Origin: Haliotis rufescens
Taxonomy: Eukaryota
Length of the DNA stretch: 64,000 nucleotides
Reading direction: 5' to 3'
NCBI RefSeq assembly: GCF_023055435.1
Contig: NW_025964001.1
Span: 1,116,001-1,180,000 of the forward strand
Shown here: positions 33,697-62,037 of the stretch, piece by piece
Layout: every line of letters begins with the position of its first letter
Position numbering within the stretch: the stretch's first letter is position 1
The notes under the pieces: generated by a model
The model's input: only the letters and a program-made list of their open reading frames with translations
Database searches by the model: none
What the model was told of the DNA's origin: nothing
Made by a program: the position numbers and the translations under genes

Positions 33697-33977
33697 GTAC
33701 GACACAGTCACACTGGACATATTGGGGATATAGCAGTCGCATCCGTTTGTTCTTTCTAGATGATCAACTTGTATGAGTTGTGAGGCTGTTCTGTATTATG
33801 TGTGACATGTTTCCTGATAAAGGAACACTGAAATAGTGAAGCGTCATGTTTTCTGCTGTCAACAGTCGTAGTCTATTTAAAAAGTACAGGGGTTGCAATA
33901 ACCTTAGCACTCCAATAGCTTTGTGGAATGGACCCTGGATGTTTTTTATTCTGGGCAGAATAATGTCGACACAATTT

Positions 33978-34128
33978 GTTGTGTGACTTGAGGACCATGT
34001 GTTGCTACATGTGTGTTGTGTGACTTGAGGACCATGTGTTGCTACATGTGTGTTGTGTGACTTGAGGACCATGTGTGTTGTGTGACTTGAGGACCATGTG
34101 TTACTATATGTGTGTTGTGTGACTTCAG
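33978..34128. repeat. ~37-bp minisatellite whose last copy forms the ER acceptor
   Basis: GTTGTGTGACTTGAGG... x4, then GTTGTGTGACTTCAG|G. Confidence 0.85.
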
Positions 34129-34270
34129 GCTACACAGATCTGTCGCTGAGTGACCAAGTGCACCTGATAGAGTGCTGCTGGATGGAGCTACTTCTCCTTA
34201 ACTGTGCATTTCGATCAATGGACCACGAGGGCAAGAGGCTAGTGTTTGCCCCGGACTTCCATTTAGATCG
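34129..34270 (+). CDS. ESR: Estrogen receptor exon, LBD H4-H5 and beta turn
   Basis: [48 protein letters not shown]; TTCAG acceptor, CG|GTCAGT donor. Confidence 0.95.
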
Positions 34271-48442: not shown

Positions 48443-48622
48443 TTATAAGTCATCCAAGTATTCCTTTTCCTGACTGGCTGGGTTTTCCACTGTGATCTTC
48501 CACTCCTGTGATGAGAGGTAATCCTCGCACTCAGCCAGAACCAGTCCTGTTTCCGACTTGTGACTGTCGACACACAAGCTGGAGGCTTGGTGGATGATAT
48601 GGTTCTTCTGTCGGTACCAGCG
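48443..48622 (-). CDS. GALNT: GALNT last coding exon, lectin gamma repeat and stop
   Basis: RWYRQKNHIIHQASSLCVDSHKSETGLVLAECEDYLSSQEWKITVENP...DDL*; QxW motifs. Confidence 0.9.
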   Translation of the reverse strand, partial: RWYRQKNHIIHQASSLCVDSHKSETGLVLAECEDYLSSQEWKITVENPASQEKEYLDDL

Positions 48623-48766
48623 CTGTACAGATAACAATACACACATGATCAAGACATCGTTATCTTGGAGTATTTGAAAAGAACTATAATCATGTGGTAG
48701 TCCTAATTTCTCTCTAATTTGCAGAAAAGGGCCCCAAATAGATAAAAATGGTCACAGATGCCTATG

Positions 48767-49000
48767 GTTTGTTGTTTAACGCCTCACTTGGCAATACTCC
48801 AGCTACATAATGGTGCCCTATAAATACATGAGTCTGGACCAGACAATCCGGTGATTGACCTCGTGGCATCGATCTACGCACTTGGGGTATGATGACATGC
48901 GTCAACCAAGTCAGTGAGCCTGACCACCTGATCCACTTAGTCGCCTCTTACCACAAGCACGGTCTACTGATGACAACATCTAACCCGGATCTTCACGGGG
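48767..49000 (-). mobile_element. SINE-like repeat, family C
   Basis: Reverse-complement match to 23070-23266; further degenerate copies near 45115-45300 and 48110-48300. Confidence 0.7.
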
Positions 49001-49094
49001 TGATGCCAATGGAGATCTTGCTAATTCATAGAGACAGGGACAGAAAGAACTATGGCGTCATCAGTTACTACTGAATTTTTTTTATTGGACTCAC

Positions 49095-49211
49095 CTGATT
49101 ATCGCCATAGTTACAGAACTGGACGACAAGGTAGGAGTGTGTCTGCTGGACGTCTGCTGTCAAACACATGCCGTTACTGACGATGACCCCCTTCCTACGC
49201 CATGACCACTC
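49095..49211 (-). CDS. GALNT: GALNT exon, lectin beta repeat
   Basis: EWSWRRKGVIVSNGMCLTADVQQTHSYLVVQFCNYGDNQ|GTGAGT. Confidence 0.9.
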
Positions 49212-49364
49212 CTGATGCAACAATATGGAAATGTTAGATAACATGTGTTGGCTCATCAGTGAGTGAGTGAATGTTGTTTACGCTGCATTCAGCGATGATC
49301 CTCCTGTGTCGTGTCTACCTGTAGATGATGGATTCTGGGCTGGGCTTATCTGACCTTACTGCCA

Positions 49365-50085
49365 CACATGGGTACCTATGACCTAATTTGCCAGGGAATT
49401 CCCACACATACTTACAAAAAAGCCAATCTGCCAGAGAATTCCCACACATAGTTTCCAATACCCCAATCTGCCAGGGAATTCCCACACATAGGTACCAATA
49501 CCCCAATCTGCAAGGGAATTCCCACATATAGGTACCAATACCCCAATCTGCAAGGGAATTCCCACACATAGTTACCAATACCCCAATCTGCAAGGGAATT
49601 CCCACACATACTTACCAATACCCCAATCTGCCAGGGAATTCCCACACATAGGTACCAATACCCCAATCTGCAAGGGAATTCCCACATATAGTTACCAATA
49701 CCCCAATCTGCAAGGGAATTCCCACACATACTTACCAATACCCCAATCTGCCAGGGAATTCCCACACATAGTTTCCAATACCCCAATCTGCCAGGTAATC
49801 CAACACATAGTTATCAATACCCCAATCTGCTAGGGAATTCCCACACATAGTTTCCAATACCCCAATCTGCCAGGGAATTCCCACACATAGTTACCAATAC
49901 CCCAATCTGCCAGGGAATTCCCAAACATAGTTACCAATACCTCCATCTGCAAGGGAATTCCAACACATAGTTAGGTATACCCCCATCTGCAAGGGAATTC
50001 CCACACATAGTTACCAATACCCCAATCTGCAAGGGAATTCCAACACATAGTTAGGGACACCCCAATCTGCCCGGGAATTCCCACT
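49365..50085. repeat. Minisatellite, 40-bp unit
   Basis: CCAATACCCCAATCTGCAAGGGAATTCCCACACATAGTTA. Confidence 0.95.
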
Positions 50086-50327
50086 TGTGGAATCGCAGTG
50101 TGGAAACAAGCATAGATGCTGATATTCTGGTATGTAGAGACAAGCACTGGAACTGAGGATCAATTCTGCCCAGGAATCCCCAGACAAGCAAAAGTACTAA
50201 GAACCTATTCTGCCTAAGGGCAGATCCAGCATTTTTTATTGGGAGGGGTCCAAAATATATAAATCCTCTCTGAGTCAATTTTAATGCCTACAACATACTA
50301 CATTTGGGTTTCAAAAGAGTTGGACAG

Positions 50328-50762
50328 CACAGGAAAGGGAAGCACAGGAATGGAAGCACAGGGAAGGGAAGCACAGGGAAGGGAAGCACAGGGAAGGGAA
50401 GCACAGGGAAGGGAAGCACAGGAAGGGAAGCACAGGAAGGGAAGCACAGGGAAGGGAAGCACAGGAAGGGAAGCACAGGGAAGGGAAGCACAGGAAGGGA
50501 AGCACAGGGAAGGGAAGCACAGGAAGGGAAGCACAGGAAGGGAAGCACAGGGAAGGGAAGCACAGGGAAGGGAAGCACAGGGAAGGGAAGCACAGGAAGG
50601 GAAGCACAGGGAAGGGAAGCACAGGGAAGGGCAGCACAGGGAAGGGAAGCACAGGTAAGGGAAGCACAGGGAAGGGAAGCACAGGGAAGGGAAGCACAGG
50701 GAAGGGAAGCACAGGAAGGGAAGCACAGGGAAGGGAAGCACAGGGAAGGGAAGCACAGGAAG
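50328..50762. repeat. 14/15-bp purine-rich minisatellite
   Basis: GGGAAGGGAAGCACA. Confidence 0.95.
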
Positions 50763-50793
50763 GCTGACATGGCTGACAGCGAGCTTTACTTGC

Positions 50794-50920
50794 CTGCGAG
50801 TCTTTTGATTCTACACACGGACGGAGCTTGATTAGGACTGGGAGTTGGCCAGGGACGATGTCCAGACACTGGTTGTCCTGGTAAATCTGGCCATAGGCAA
50901 ACTCATCGTTCACTGGCAAC
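50794..50920 (-). CDS. GALNT: GALNT exon, ricin-B lectin alpha repeat; ends at a GC donor
   Basis: LPVNDEFAYGQIYQDNQCLDIVPGQLPVLIKLRPCVESKDSQ|GCAAGT. Confidence 0.9.
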
Positions 50921-54096: not shown

Positions 54097-54189
54097 TCTC
54101 CGTAGGCCTGCATGCGTGCAGAAGGTCGAGCAGCGTAGTAAAATCGCTTGTAATCATCCATCCACACCTCTGCTGTCCTCCTTGTGTTC
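54097..54189 (-). CDS. GALNT: GALNT exon
   Basis: [30 protein letters not shown]; CTGCAG acceptor, GA|GTAAGT donor. Confidence 0.95.
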
Positions 54190-54219
54190 CTGCAGGGAGG
54201 ATATGAGGATATGAGAGCC

Positions 54220-54815
54220 GTGTCATGTGATAACAATGTCACGTGAGAAAATTATCATGTGAGAAGTGTCACATGAGAAAAGTGTCATGAGAACAGTGTC
54301 ACAAGAAAACATTGTCATGTGAGAACAGAAATGTGTCATGTGAGAACAGAAATGTAAGAACAACATAATGTTAGAACACTGTCATGTGAGAACAGCATAA
54401 TGTGCGAACACTGTCATGTGAGAACAGCAGAATGTGAGAACACTGTCATGTGAGAACAGCATGTGAGAAGTGTCATGTGAGAACAATATAATGTGAGAAA
54501 ACTGTCATGTGAGAAGAACAGCATAATGTGAGAACAATGTCATGTGAGAACAGCATAATGTGAGAACACTGTCATGTGAGAACAGCAGAATGTGAGAACA
54601 CTGTCATGTGAGAACAGCAGAATGTGAGAACACTGTCATGTGAGAACAGCATGTGAGAAGTGTCATGTGAGAACAATATAATGTGAGAAAACTGTCATGT
54701 GAGAAGAACAGCATAATGTGAGAACAATGTCATGTGAGAACAGCATAATGTGAGAACACTGTCATGTGAGAACAACATAATGTGAGAACACTGTTATGTG
54801 AGAACAATGTCTCAT
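54220..54815. repeat. Degenerate TGTGAGAACA satellite next to a GALNT acceptor
   Basis: TGTCATGTGAGAACAGCATAATGTGAGAACAC variants. Confidence 0.85.
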
Positions 54816-54904
54816 GAGAATATTATACATCAAGGAAAGATACTACTGTTTGCTTTAATACTGATTTGGATGAAATTATGTATTTGTCTTGTAGATGTAA
54901 GGTT

Positions 54905-57053
54905 TGTACATGTTGGAGCCTTACTTCATGTATGTGTTGGAGCCTTACTTCAAGTACGTGATGGAGCCTTACTTCATGTACATGTCGGAGCCTTACTTCA
55001 TGTATGTGTTGGAGCCTTACTTCATGTACATGTCGGAGCCTTACTTCATGTATGTGTTGGAGCCTTACTTCATGTACGTGCTGGAGCCTTACTTCATGTA
55101 CATGTCGGAGCCTTACTTCATGTATGTGTTGGAGCCTTACTTCATGTACGTGTCGGAGCCTTACTTCATGTATGTGTCGGAGCCTTACTTCATGTATGTG
55201 TTGGAGCCTTACTTCAAGTACGTGTTGGAGCCTTACTTCATGTACGTGTTGGAGCCTTACTTCATGTACGTGTTGGAGCCTTACTTCATGTACGTGTTGG
55301 AGCCTTACTTCATGTACGTGTCGGAGCCTTATTTCATGTACGTGTCGGAGCCTTACTTCATGTACGTGTCGGAGCCTTACTTCATGTACGTGTTGGAGCC
55401 TTACTTCATGTACGTGTTGGAGCCTTACTTCATGTACGTGTCGGAGCCTTACTTCATGTACGTGTCGGAGCCTTACTTCATGTACGTGTCGGAGCCTTAC
55501 TTCATGTACGTTTTGGAGCCTTACTTCATGTACGTGTCGGAGCCTTACTTCATGTACGAGTTGGAGCCTTACTTCATGTACGTGTTGGAGCCTTACTTCA
55601 TGTACGTGTTGGAGCCTTACTTCATGTACGTGTTGGAGCCTTACTTCATGTACGTGTTGGAGCCTTACTTCATGTACATGTTGGAGCCTTACTTCATGTA
55701 CGTGCTGGAGCCTTACTTCATGTACGTGTTGGAGCCTTACTTCATGTACGTGCTGGAGCCTTACTTCATGTACATGTCGGAGCCTTACTTCATGTACATG
55801 TCGGAGCCTTACTTCATGTACGTGTTGGAGCCTTACTTCATGCATGTGTTGGAGCCTTACTTCATGCATGTGTTGGAGCCTTACTTCATGTACGTGCTGG
55901 AGCCTTACTTCATGTATGTGTTGGAGCCTTACTTCATGTACGTGCTGGAGCCTTACTTCATGTACGTGTTGGAGCCTTACTTCATGTACGTGCTGGAGCC
56001 TTACTTCATGTACGTGTTGGAGCCTTACTTCATGTATGTGTCAGAGCCTTACTTCATGTACGTGTCGGAGCCTTACTTCATGTACGTGTCGGAGCCTTAC
56101 TTCATGTACGTGTTGGAGCCTTACTTCATGTACGTGTTGGAGCCTTACTTCATGTACGTGTTGGAGCCTTACTTCATGTACGTGTTGGAGCCTTACTTCA
56201 TGTACGTGTCGGAGCCTTACTTCATGTACGTGTCGGAGCCTTACTTCATGTACGTGTTGGAGCCTTACTTCATGTACGTGTTGGAGCCTTACTTCATGTA
56301 CGTGTTGGAGCCTTACTTCATGTACGTGTCGGAGCCTTACTTCATGTACGTGTCGGAGCCTTACTTCATGTACGTGTTGGAGCCTTACTTCATGTACGTG
56401 TTGGAGCCTTACTTCATGTACGTGTCGGAGCCTTACTTCATGTACGTGTCGGAGCCTTACTTCATGTACGTGTTGGAGCCTTACTTCATGTACGTGTTGG
56501 AGCCTTACTTCATGTACGTGTTGGAGCCTTACTTCAAGTACGTGTCGGAGCCTTACTTCATGTACGTGTCGGAGCCTTACTTCATGTACGTGTTGGAGCC
56601 TTACTTCATGTACGTGTTGGAGCCTTACTTCATGTACGTGTTGGAGCCTTACTTCAAGTACGTGTTGGAGCCTTACTTCAAGTACATGTCAGAGCCTTAC
56701 TTCATGTACGTGTCAGAGCCTTACTTCAAGTACGTGTTGGAGCCTTACTTCATGTACGTGTCGGAGCCTTACTTCATGTACGTGTTGGAGCCTTACTTCA
56801 TGTACGTGTCAGAGCCTTACTTCATGTACGTGTTGGAGCCTTACTTCATGTACGTGTCGGAGCCTTACTTCATGTACGTGTTGGAGCCTTCCTTCATGTA
56901 CGTGTCAGAGCCTTACTTCATGTACGTGTCAGAGCCTTACTTCAAGTACGTGTTGGAGCCTTACTTCATGTACGTGTCAGAGCCTTACTTCAAGTACGTG
57001 ATGGAGCCTTACTTCATGTACATGTTGGAGCCTTACTTCATGTACGTGTTGGA
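54905..57053 (-). repeat. 24-bp minisatellite spanning a GALNT exon-intron junction, about 89 copies
   Basis: Sense unit CTCCAACACGTACATGAA|GTAAGG. Confidence 0.97.
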
Positions 57054-57163
57054 GTTTCCCTGGGGGAAGGAGTACGGATGACGTTTGCGGAATACATGTC
57101 CGACTCGACTGCAGGGGATTATCTCAAGCTGTCCTCCACACATCCACACACGAAATGACAACT
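57037..57163 (-). CDS. GALNT: GALNT exon, catalytic flexible loop
   Basis: [43 protein letters not shown]; donor AA|GTAAGG is repeated in the downstream array. Confidence 0.96.
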
Positions 57164-57590: not shown

Positions 57591-57694
57591 CGAAGTTCTC
57601 TCCGCCCCAGATGTCCATCTTGGTGTCGTACTTGCCGAGACTGGTGAACCACTGCTTCCTGACACTGAAGATACCTCCGGCAATGATGGGGGTC
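57591..57694 (-). CDS. GALNT: GALNT exon with Gal/GalNAc-T WGGEN motif
   Basis: [34 protein letters not shown]. Confidence 0.96.
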
Positions 57695-60299: not shown

Positions 60300-62037
60300 C
60301 CCCTGACCCTCTACATTGCCCCCTTGTCATGGCCCTGACCCCCAACATTGCCCCCCGGTCATGGTCTTGACCCCCAACATTGCCCCCTGGTCATGGCCCT
60401 GACCCCCTACATTGCCCCCTTGTCATGGCCCTGAACCCCTACATTGCCCCCTGGTCATGGCCCTGACCCCCTACATTGCCCCCTGGTCATGGCCCTGAAC
60501 CCCTACATTGCCCCCTTGTCATGGCCTTGACCCCCTACATTGCCCCCTGGTCATGGCCTTGACCCCCTACATTGCCCCCTGGTCATGGCCTTGACCCCCT
60601 ACATTGCCCCCTGGTTATGGCCCTGACCCTCTATATTGCCCCCTGGTCATGGCCCTGACCCCCAACATTGCCCCCTGGTCATGGCCCTGACCCCCTACAT
60701 TGCCCCCGATCATGGCCCTGACCCCCCAACATTGCCCCCTGGTCATGGCCCTGACCCCCCAACATTGCCCCCTTGTCATGGCCCTGACCCCCAACATTGC
60801 CCCCTGGTCATGGCCCTGACCCCCCAACATTGCCCCCTTGTCATGGCCCTGACCCCCAACATTGCCCCCTGGTCATGGCCCTGACCACCTTCATTGCCCC
60901 CTGGTTATGGCCCTGACCCTCTACATTGCCCCTTGGTCATGGCCCTGACCCTCAACATTGCCTCCTTGTCATGGCCGTGACCCCCTACATTGCCCCCGAT
61001 CATGGCCCTGACCCCCTACATTGCCCCTGGCTGTAGCCCTGACGCTCTACATTGCCCCTTGGTCATGGCCCTGACCCTCAACATTGCCTCCTTGTCATGG
61101 CCGTGACCCCCTATATTGTCCCCGGTCATGGCCCTGACCCCCAACATTGCCCCCAATCATTGCCCTGACCCCCTACATTGCCACCAATCATGGCCCTGAC
61201 ATTGCCACTGATCATGGCCCTGACCCCCCACATTGCCCCGATCATGGCCCTGACCCCCTACATTGCCCCCTGGCTGTAGTCCTGACCCTCTATATTGCCC
61301 CTTGTCATGTTCCTGACCCCCTATATTGTCCCCGATCATGGCCCTGACCCCCTACATTGCCCCAATCATGGCCCTGACCCCCAACATTGCCCCAATCATG
61401 GCCCTGACCCCCTACATTGCCCCCGATCATGGCCCTGACCCCCTACATTGCCCCAAATCATGGCCCTGAACCCCTACATTGCCCCCGATCATGGCCCTGA
61501 CCCCCTACATTGCCCCTTGTCATGTTCCTGACCCCCTATATTGTCCCCGGTCGTGGCCCTGACCCCCTATATTGCCCCCTGGTTGTGACCCTGACCCCCT
61601 ACATTGCCCCTTGTCATGTTCCTGACCCCCTATATTGTCCCTGGTCATGGCCCTGACCCCCTACATTGCCCCCTGGTTGTGGCCCTGACCCCTTACAATG
61701 CCCCCGGGCATGGCCCTGACCCCTGACATTGCCCCCTGGTCACGGCCCTGACCCCCTAAATTGTCCCCTGGTCATCGCCCTGACCCCGAACACTGCTCCC
61801 TGGTCGTGGCCCTGACCCCCTACATGCCCCCCGGTCATGGCCCTGACCCCCTACATTGCCCCTGGGTCATGGCCCTGACCCCCTTCATGCCCCCCGGTCA
61901 TGGCCCTGACCCCCTACATTGCCCCCCGGTCATGGCCCTGACCCCCTACATGCCCCCCGGTCGTGGCCCTGACCCCCTACATTGCCCCTGGGTCATGGCC
62001 CTGACCCCCTACATGTCCTCCGGTCATGGCCCTGACT
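60300..62037. repeat. ~32-bp C/G-run minisatellite beginning within a GALNT donor
   Basis: GGTCATGGCCCTGACCCCCTACATTGCCCCCT; the sense strand starts GTAAGTCAGGGCCATGACC. Confidence 0.95.

What the first reader, a model, noticed from the sequence alone, without database searches (positions are those of the whole stretch)
54905..57053. GALNT donor copied about 89 times, each copy behind an in-frame stop
Seen: the 24-nt unit is the exon end (...AAC ACG TAC ATG AA) plus GTAAGG. Reading past the first donor gives AAG TAA, so only the first donor (57037) keeps the ORF open. Inference: this 2.1-kb array of U1-binding decoys would send any downstream donor use to a truncated, lectin-less NMD substrate. 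It could act as a length-dependent expression dial, or show robust first-come donor choice. It is the mirror case of the stop-free ER array.
Basis: partly seen in the sequence, partly recalled or inferred. Interest (0 to 1): 0.7.

Follow-up and report, generated by a model that had tools for sequence, protein, structure and literature searches.

The report
Splice-donor "mirage" minisatellite in abalone GALNT
The last 18 bases of an exon of an abalone sugar-transferase gene and its splice signal are copied 89 times into the next intron, but the assembled RNA examined cuts at the first signal, so this is likely a harmless repeat of a kind already known from human and lancelet genes rather than an expression dial.

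Summary
There are 89 full 24-nt units (18 exon nt + GTAAGG), and 87 keep an identical donor followed by an in-frame TAA. The gene is an intact 15-exon abalone GALNT14/16-like gene. The array is real: it is in 4 of 4 further DNA runs, and its 18-nt core occurs only here in the genome. One RNA contig joins the first donor straight to the acceptor at 54189. In three more runs the exon contigs stop matching the genome at that donor, and none shows a downstream donor (contigs drop rare forms). The stop is no design: 7 of 9 phase-2 donors in two mapped genes have one. The class is known: human F7, IFI6, CBS, LMNB2 and PDGF minisatellites, and lancelet "mirages". It is also common here. Nearby 1.46 Mb hold at least four more homology-backed cases (ER, Rab32/38-like, both ends of one SDCCAG8 intron), and this scan noted eight others elsewhere in this genome. 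The copy number exceeds the human cases I read about. The dial idea is untested and unlikely.

The parts
57037..57163 (-). Coding exon 10 of 15 of a GALNT14/16-like gene (127 nt, ends in phase 2)
   Evidence: tblastn and exon walk with Haliotis proteins; RNA joints
57035..57036 (-). Authentic GT donor (GAA|GTAAGG), the first of 87 identical intact sites
   Evidence: RNA contig of run X18 leaves here for the exon at 54189
57033..57035 (-). In-frame TAA met on reading past the first donor (codon 341)
   Evidence: Translation
54905..57054 (-). 24-nt minisatellite: 89 full units + 13-nt partial unit; unit = 18 exon nt + 6 intron nt; 18 unit variants
   Evidence: present in DNA runs X6, X7, X8, X12
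56887..56910 (-). Unit 7 with broken donor (GGAAGG); the only unit without the stop
55327..55350 (-). Unit with broken donor (ATAAGG; still carries TAA)
54212..54820 (-). Second, unrelated 16/32-nt minisatellite in the same intron, ending 22 nt before the acceptor; only 106 of the intron's 2847 nt are non-repeat
54097..54189 (-). Coding exon 11 (acceptor CAG at 54192-54190), [11 protein letters not shown]...
57591..57694 (-). Coding exon 9, joined to exon 10 in 4 of 4 RNA runs laid
   Evidence: table 5
48445..50920 (-). Exons 13-15, holding the ricin-type lectin domain (aa 408-521) that use of a downstream donor would lose

Best explanation
This is an intronic minisatellite whose 24-nt unit copies the end of exon 10 of an abalone GALNT14/16-like gene together with its GT donor; the RNA contigs examined splice at the first copy, and the other 86 intact donors are likely silent, tolerated passengers. 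Inferred steps: (1) a local tandem duplication across the exon-intron boundary seeded the array, which grew by slippage or unequal exchange like the roughly 30 other arrays in this window; (2) the spliceosome picks the donor nearest the exon's own acceptor (exon definition or 5'-to-3' scanning), by position and not strength, since all sites are identical; (3) any rare slip to a later copy would insert AAG-TAA upstream of four more introns and be removed by NMD, which is why the array costs little.
For: Shown: the 18-nt core occurs only in this array (60 of 60 listed genome hits). The exon residues NSNTYMK are identical in four Haliotis species and near-identical in amphioxus, frog and annelid, so the exon is the source of the repeat. 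RNA: the X18 contig runs exon 9 > exon 10 > exon 11 through the first donor; in X14, X15 and X16 both allele contigs (depth 11.6-70.4) stop matching at 57036; no listed contig runs from the exon into copy 2; array-only contigs have depth 2.7-4.3 against 28-117 for the exon in X15/X16 and none in X14, whereas in DNA the best listed array contig is 8-28 times the flank in X6, X7 and X12. Stop at +2..+4 in 7 of 9 phase-2 donors (5 of 7 without the two array donors). No excess conservation of the donor part (P=0.39); frequent variants include C>T and G>A at the unit's CpG. 37% of the window and 19% of 1.46 Mb nearby are tandem repeat. Same architecture at ER, Rab32/38-like and SDCCAG8. Precedent: in F7 only the most upstream of 5-9 identical donors is used (PMC1557585).
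Against: The RNA evidence is assembled contigs from 4 runs in 2 studies, which drop rare forms, and NMD would hide leaked products, so exclusive first-donor use is not shown. Only X18 shows the joined letters directly, at depth 4.2, where an array contig has depth 3.1. One row of table 8 was not shown. In human IFI6 and CBS the next two pseudo-sites are used (PMC1557585, Introduction). Summed array-to-flank depth differs among DNA runs (about 25-74), which hints at the length variation a dial would need. 87 of 89 donors remain intact. Local folding leaves the first donor somewhat more open (0.66 unpaired) than the median copy (0.50, range 0.24-0.78), so structure may help.
Confidence: 0.8

Rival explanations
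1. Leaky passenger: the second or third copy is used at a low rate, as in IFI6 and CBS, or under heat stress (latent 5' sites). The products are degraded, and long alleles trim expression slightly as a side effect with no selected role.
For: IFI6 and CBS use two pseudo-sites (PMC1557585 Introduction). Heat shock activates latent donors behind in-frame stops in mammalian cells (PMC3510495, search listing only). Low-depth array contigs exist in 3 of 4 RNA runs.
Against: No listed contig joins exon to copy 2 or a copy to exon 11; array contig depth is like that of ordinary intron pieces (3-7) although dozens of copies collapse into it.
Confidence: 0.13
2. Selected expression dial: copy number sets the share of transcripts sent to NMD or the amount of U1 tied up, and so tunes GALNT level.
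For: 87 of 89 donors intact with a stop; DNA depth ratios vary between runs.
Against: The stop is automatic for phase-2 GTAA; no extra conservation of the donor part; arrays of the same build lie in unrelated genes, with a stop (SDCCAG8, Rab32/38-like) or without (ER); spliced RNA at the first donor dominates.
Confidence: 0.05
3. Assembly artefact or inflated copy number.
For: Short-read contigs cannot give the array's length.
Against: 18 unit variants lie in ordered blocks; contigs run from the exon into the array in X6, X7 and X8, and array contigs are at high depth in 4 of 4 DNA runs from 3 studies.
Confidence: 0.02

Closest known systems
Human F7 intron 7 37-bp VNTR (Borensztajn et al. 2006, PMC1557585; read abstract, Introduction, Discussion)
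   Same: First unit spans the exon-intron boundary; identical donors repeat into the intron; the most upstream donor is used.
   Different: 5-9 copies of 37 bp with 4 exon nt, against 89 copies of 24 bp with 18 exon nt here; some F7 pseudo-sites give no stop, here all intact ones do; F7 was tested by mutation, this one only by RNA contigs.
Human IFI6 (6-16), CBS intron 13, LMNB2 and PDGF intron 4 junction minisatellites (as described in the Introduction of PMC1557585; CBS VNTR c.1444_1467+7(16_21) also in passages of PMC2630376)
   Same: Exon end plus donor repeated 10-26 times; the CBS unit is 24 exon nt + 7 intron nt, close to this build.
   Different: IFI6 and CBS use two extra sites; no such use is seen here. 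Copy number here is over three times the largest of these.
Lancelet 'mirages' (Adh3, troponin C, globins BflGb6/BflGb9, PGBD5; passages of PMC3087553 and PMC3902484)
   Same: Minisatellite-like tandem copies of exon-intron boundaries, donor or acceptor side, units from 10 bp up, in a marine invertebrate, reported not to disturb splicing.
   Different: Mollusc rather than cephalochordate; the globin clusters have 3-6 units; length instability was reported there and is only hinted at here.

Membership tests
Junction-spanning minisatellite ('mirage' / F7-type) | Head-to-tail repeat with a unit of 10-160 bp | tested here: met
   24 nt x 89.6, 94% matches
Junction-spanning minisatellite ('mirage' / F7-type) | Terminal unit spans a real exon-intron boundary | tested here: met
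   Unit 1 = last 18 nt of exon 10 + 6 intron nt; boundary shown by protein match and RNA
Junction-spanning minisatellite ('mirage' / F7-type) | Splice signal repeated intact in the intron | tested here: met
   87 of 89 identical from -3 to +8
Junction-spanning minisatellite ('mirage' / F7-type) | Normal mRNA made from the authentic site | tested here: met
   Joined contig in X18; exon contigs end at the donor in X14-X16
Junction-spanning minisatellite ('mirage' / F7-type) | Length polymorphism (VNTR) | tested here: inconclusive
   Summed depth ratios of about 25-74 in four DNA runs, but contig depth is no copy number
Junction-spanning minisatellite ('mirage' / F7-type) | Spare sites work when the first is inactivated | not testable with these tools
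   Needs a minigene
Regulated unproductive splicing (AS-NMD switch) | Alternative site introduces a premature stop upstream of later junctions | tested here: met
   TAA at codon 341 with four more introns after exon 11
Regulated unproductive splicing (AS-NMD switch) | Alternative isoform detectably made, rising under NMD block | tested here: inconclusive
   None in contigs of 4 untreated runs; no NMD-block data
Regulated unproductive splicing (AS-NMD switch) | Conservation of the alternative site beyond neutral | tested here: not met
   Within the array: 2 of 12 distinct changes fall in the 6 intron sites, P=0.39 (low power). Other species' introns not available.
GALNT14/16-like polypeptide GalNAc-transferase | GT-A domain plus ricin lectin domain in an intact frame | tested here: met
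   PF00535, PF02709, PF00652 on P0011; 15 exons rebuild P0123

The most novel reading that the evidence does not exclude
Abalone chromosome ends carry junction-copying arrays as a recurrent class, seeded preferentially at donors, and long stop-containing ones such as this 87-donor array leak to later copies under heat stress, making copy number a heritable, stress-dependent dial on gene output through NMD.
Probability: 0.07. Interest if true: 0.6.

Novelty: new member of a known kind. Interest (0 to 1): 0.17.

Why it matters
By itself it is one more silent junction repeat, with more copies than the human cases I read about. Its use is as a test bed: 87 identical donors show that position, not sequence strength, sets donor choice in a mollusc. 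The neighbouring SDCCAG8 intron, with both donor and acceptor copied, fits exon definition better than plain first-come scanning, if its gene model is right. If leak under stress or a length effect were found, abalone would offer many natural alleles to study it.

Tried and rejected
No RNA holder was on record in the run search; the four runs laid are guessed RNA, but their contigs join exons, so they are spliced. Long stop-free frames on the plus strand of the array are a by-product of the unit; nothing suggests a gene. Hairpin masking of the spare donors: no clear contrast in a global fold (0.51 for the first, 0.27-0.57 for the next 17), a mild one in local folds; not needed as explanation. 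A dispersed repeat or transposon origin: rejected, all 60 listed hits are in the array (exact match only). Pfam is weak on single short exons: the focal GALNT exon itself scored nothing, so the survey counts are lower bounds. L009 (LRR-like exon, donor x36) got no significant homologue (best PDB E 0.011) and is kept as unconfirmed. L052:7013-8505 and window 60301-62036 start just after a donor and do not copy it; dropped. Paper searches: minisatellite + multiple splice donor sites, VNTR + exon-intron boundary (22), abalone + minisatellite + intron (23), 6-16 (39), VNTR + UPF3A (40, none), pseudo-sites (56), CBS (59), mirage (63), latent sites (66). None of the listed papers describes junction arrays in abalone; subscription journals are not covered and no supplements were read.

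Full report
Observation. The minus strand at 57054-54905 is a 24-nt tandem array (89.6 copies, 94% matches). Cut in register it has 89 full units in 18 variants and a 13-nt partial unit; 87 units keep GAA|GTAAGG and are identical from -3 to +8. The first unit is the last 18 nt of an exon plus 6 intron nt. Reading on gives ...N-S-N-T-Y-M-K-stop, and 88 of 89 units carry that stop.

The gene. The exon matches GalNAc-transferases and is 100% identical to a Haliotis GALNT14-like protein. The cluster has four abalone species, and the H. rufescens member P0123 is rebuilt by 15 exons from the window and its neighbours. This is exon 10; the intron is 2847 nt, only 106 of them non-repeat. The residues under the unit are the same in all four abalones and nearly so in amphioxus, frog and annelid, so the exon gave rise to the repeat and not the reverse. 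A stop at codon 341 would remove the end of the catalytic part and the lectin domain (408-521), with four further introns downstream; NMD is expected from general knowledge and was not tested.

Real and local. All 60 listed exact hits of the 18-nt core in the 1.33-Gb genome lie in this array. In four further DNA runs from three studies (4 of 13 DNA rows listed) the array is present: contigs run from the exon into it in X6, X7 and X8, and the best listed array contig is 23, 28 and 8 times the flank depth in X6, X7 and X12 (137 rows not shown). Summed ratios range from about 25 to 74, a hint of length variation only, since contig depth is no copy number.

Which donor is used. Four guessed-RNA runs from two studies were laid (4 of 8 such contig rows). 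All four join exon 9 to exon 10. In X18 one 522-nt contig continues from 57036 into letters matching exon 11, so it uses the first donor. In X14, X15 and X16 both allele contigs stop matching the genome at 57036 with three letters left over, so they do not continue into the intron's TAA. No listed contig passes from the exon into copy 2. Array-only contigs have depth 2.9 (X15, exon 112), 2.7-4.3 (X16, exon 28.5), 3.1 (X18, exon 4.2) and are absent in X14 (exon 117.5). First-donor splicing therefore dominates the steady state. Rare use of later donors is not excluded, because contigs drop rare forms and NMD would hide them.

Is the stop or the donor selected? A phase-2 intron that begins GTAA, GTAG or GTGA puts a stop right behind the donor. 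Of 9 phase-2 donors in GALNT and SDCCAG8, 7 do, or 5 of 7 without the two array donors. Of 12 distinct changes among the units, 2 fall in the 6 intron positions, where 3 are expected (P=0.39, low power). Folding gives no sharp contrast between first and later donors. Nothing points to design.

Context. The window lies 1.1 Mb from the start of a 68-Mb contig; 37% of it is tandem repeat, with 31 arrays of 150 nt or more, and repeat density falls to near zero beyond about 1.32 Mb. I scanned 1,464,000 nt (323 arrays, 80 candidate rows) and sent 45 of the 80 to Pfam. Cases backed by homology: the ER donor, 57 nt x 16.8, in this window; a Rab32/38-like donor, 21 nt x 21, also phase 2 with a stop; and one SDCCAG8 intron with its donor copied in a 32-nt x 19 array and its acceptor in a 74-nt array of 18 or more copies. 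A CEP170-like exon start copied 4 times is ambiguous. Seven more look similar by eye without homology support (L009, L094, L095, L104, L105, L108, L124). In the 29 introns of the two mapped genes, 8 of 21 arrays start within 30 nt of a donor against 2.8 expected (p about 0.001), and 3 end that near an acceptor. Both genes were picked because of their arrays and two intron ends without arrays were placed slightly wrong in that script, so this is a lead only.

Mechanism. Shown: unit anatomy, stop, local origin, first-donor splicing in contigs. Inferred: birth by local duplication and growth by slippage or unequal exchange; positional donor choice by exon definition or oriented scanning; NMD removal of rare errors. 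The SDCCAG8 model uses the first donor and the last acceptor, i.e. the sites nearest each exon body, which fits exon definition; I did not check that junction in RNA.

What is known. PMC1557585 (abstract, Introduction, Discussion read) describes this class in human F7, IFI6, CBS, LMNB2 and PDGF and shows by mutation that only the most upstream F7 donor is used although the others work; IFI6 and CBS use two extra sites. PMC3087553 and PMC3902484 (passages) name the same structures 'mirages' in lancelets and report normal splicing. PMC6905558 (passages) reports a 27-bp x 62 polymorphic intronic minisatellite in Pacific abalone, not said to span a junction. PMC10078293 and PMC2630376 were seen in passages; PMC3510495 and PMC1524910 only in a search listing. 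Earlier notes of this scan list eight such arrays elsewhere in this genome with the same verdict (unchecked AI notes, which gave me the 'mirage' papers).

Verdict. A real, large, ordinary member of a known class. Interest 0.17.

Noticed in passing
   Followed up: partly
L053:416-1022 and L052:8628-10000 into L053 (-): One SDCCAG8 intron has its donor copied (32 nt x 19, phase 2 with TAG) and its acceptor plus 33 exon nt copied (74 nt x 18 or more); the protein model uses the first donor and the last acceptor.
   Followed up: partly
L117:6398-6844 (+): Rab32/38-like exon end plus donor copied in a 21-nt x 21 array, phase 2 with TAG: the same build as the GALNT array.
   Followed up: partly
L009:5593-7400 (-): LRR-like exon end plus donor copied about 36 times (50-nt unit); exon not confirmed by homology.
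   Followed up: partly
L059:1607-1883 (+): CEP170-like exon start with a CAG acceptor (or start codon) copied 4 times in a 63-nt unit.
   Followed up: partly
L094:6450-7536, L095:472-1191, L104:7961-9157, L105:2872-3710, L108:3596-3661, L124:3197-4495: Further arrays that appear by eye to copy a donor or (L104) an acceptor of plausible exons; no homology support obtained.
   Followed up: partly
GALNT and SDCCAG8 introns: Arrays tend to start within 30 nt of a donor (8 of 21 against 2.8 expected); biased sample.
   Followed up: partly
window 50794 (-): GALNT intron 13 appears to be a GC-AG intron (CAG|GCAAGT) in the exon walk.
   Followed up: no
window 33977-34129 (+): A 25/37-nt array ends on the ER acceptor at 34129; upstream copies read TTGAG|GAC instead of TTCAG|GCT.
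   Followed up: no
window 57093, 57114, 57126: A second allele of exon 10 (5 differences in the contig) is expressed in runs X14-X16; usable for allele-specific counts.
   Followed up: no
G000 C594, C605, C2: Large clusters of other GALNT-like genes, plus a few intronless copies (C223, C90, C35).
   Followed up: no
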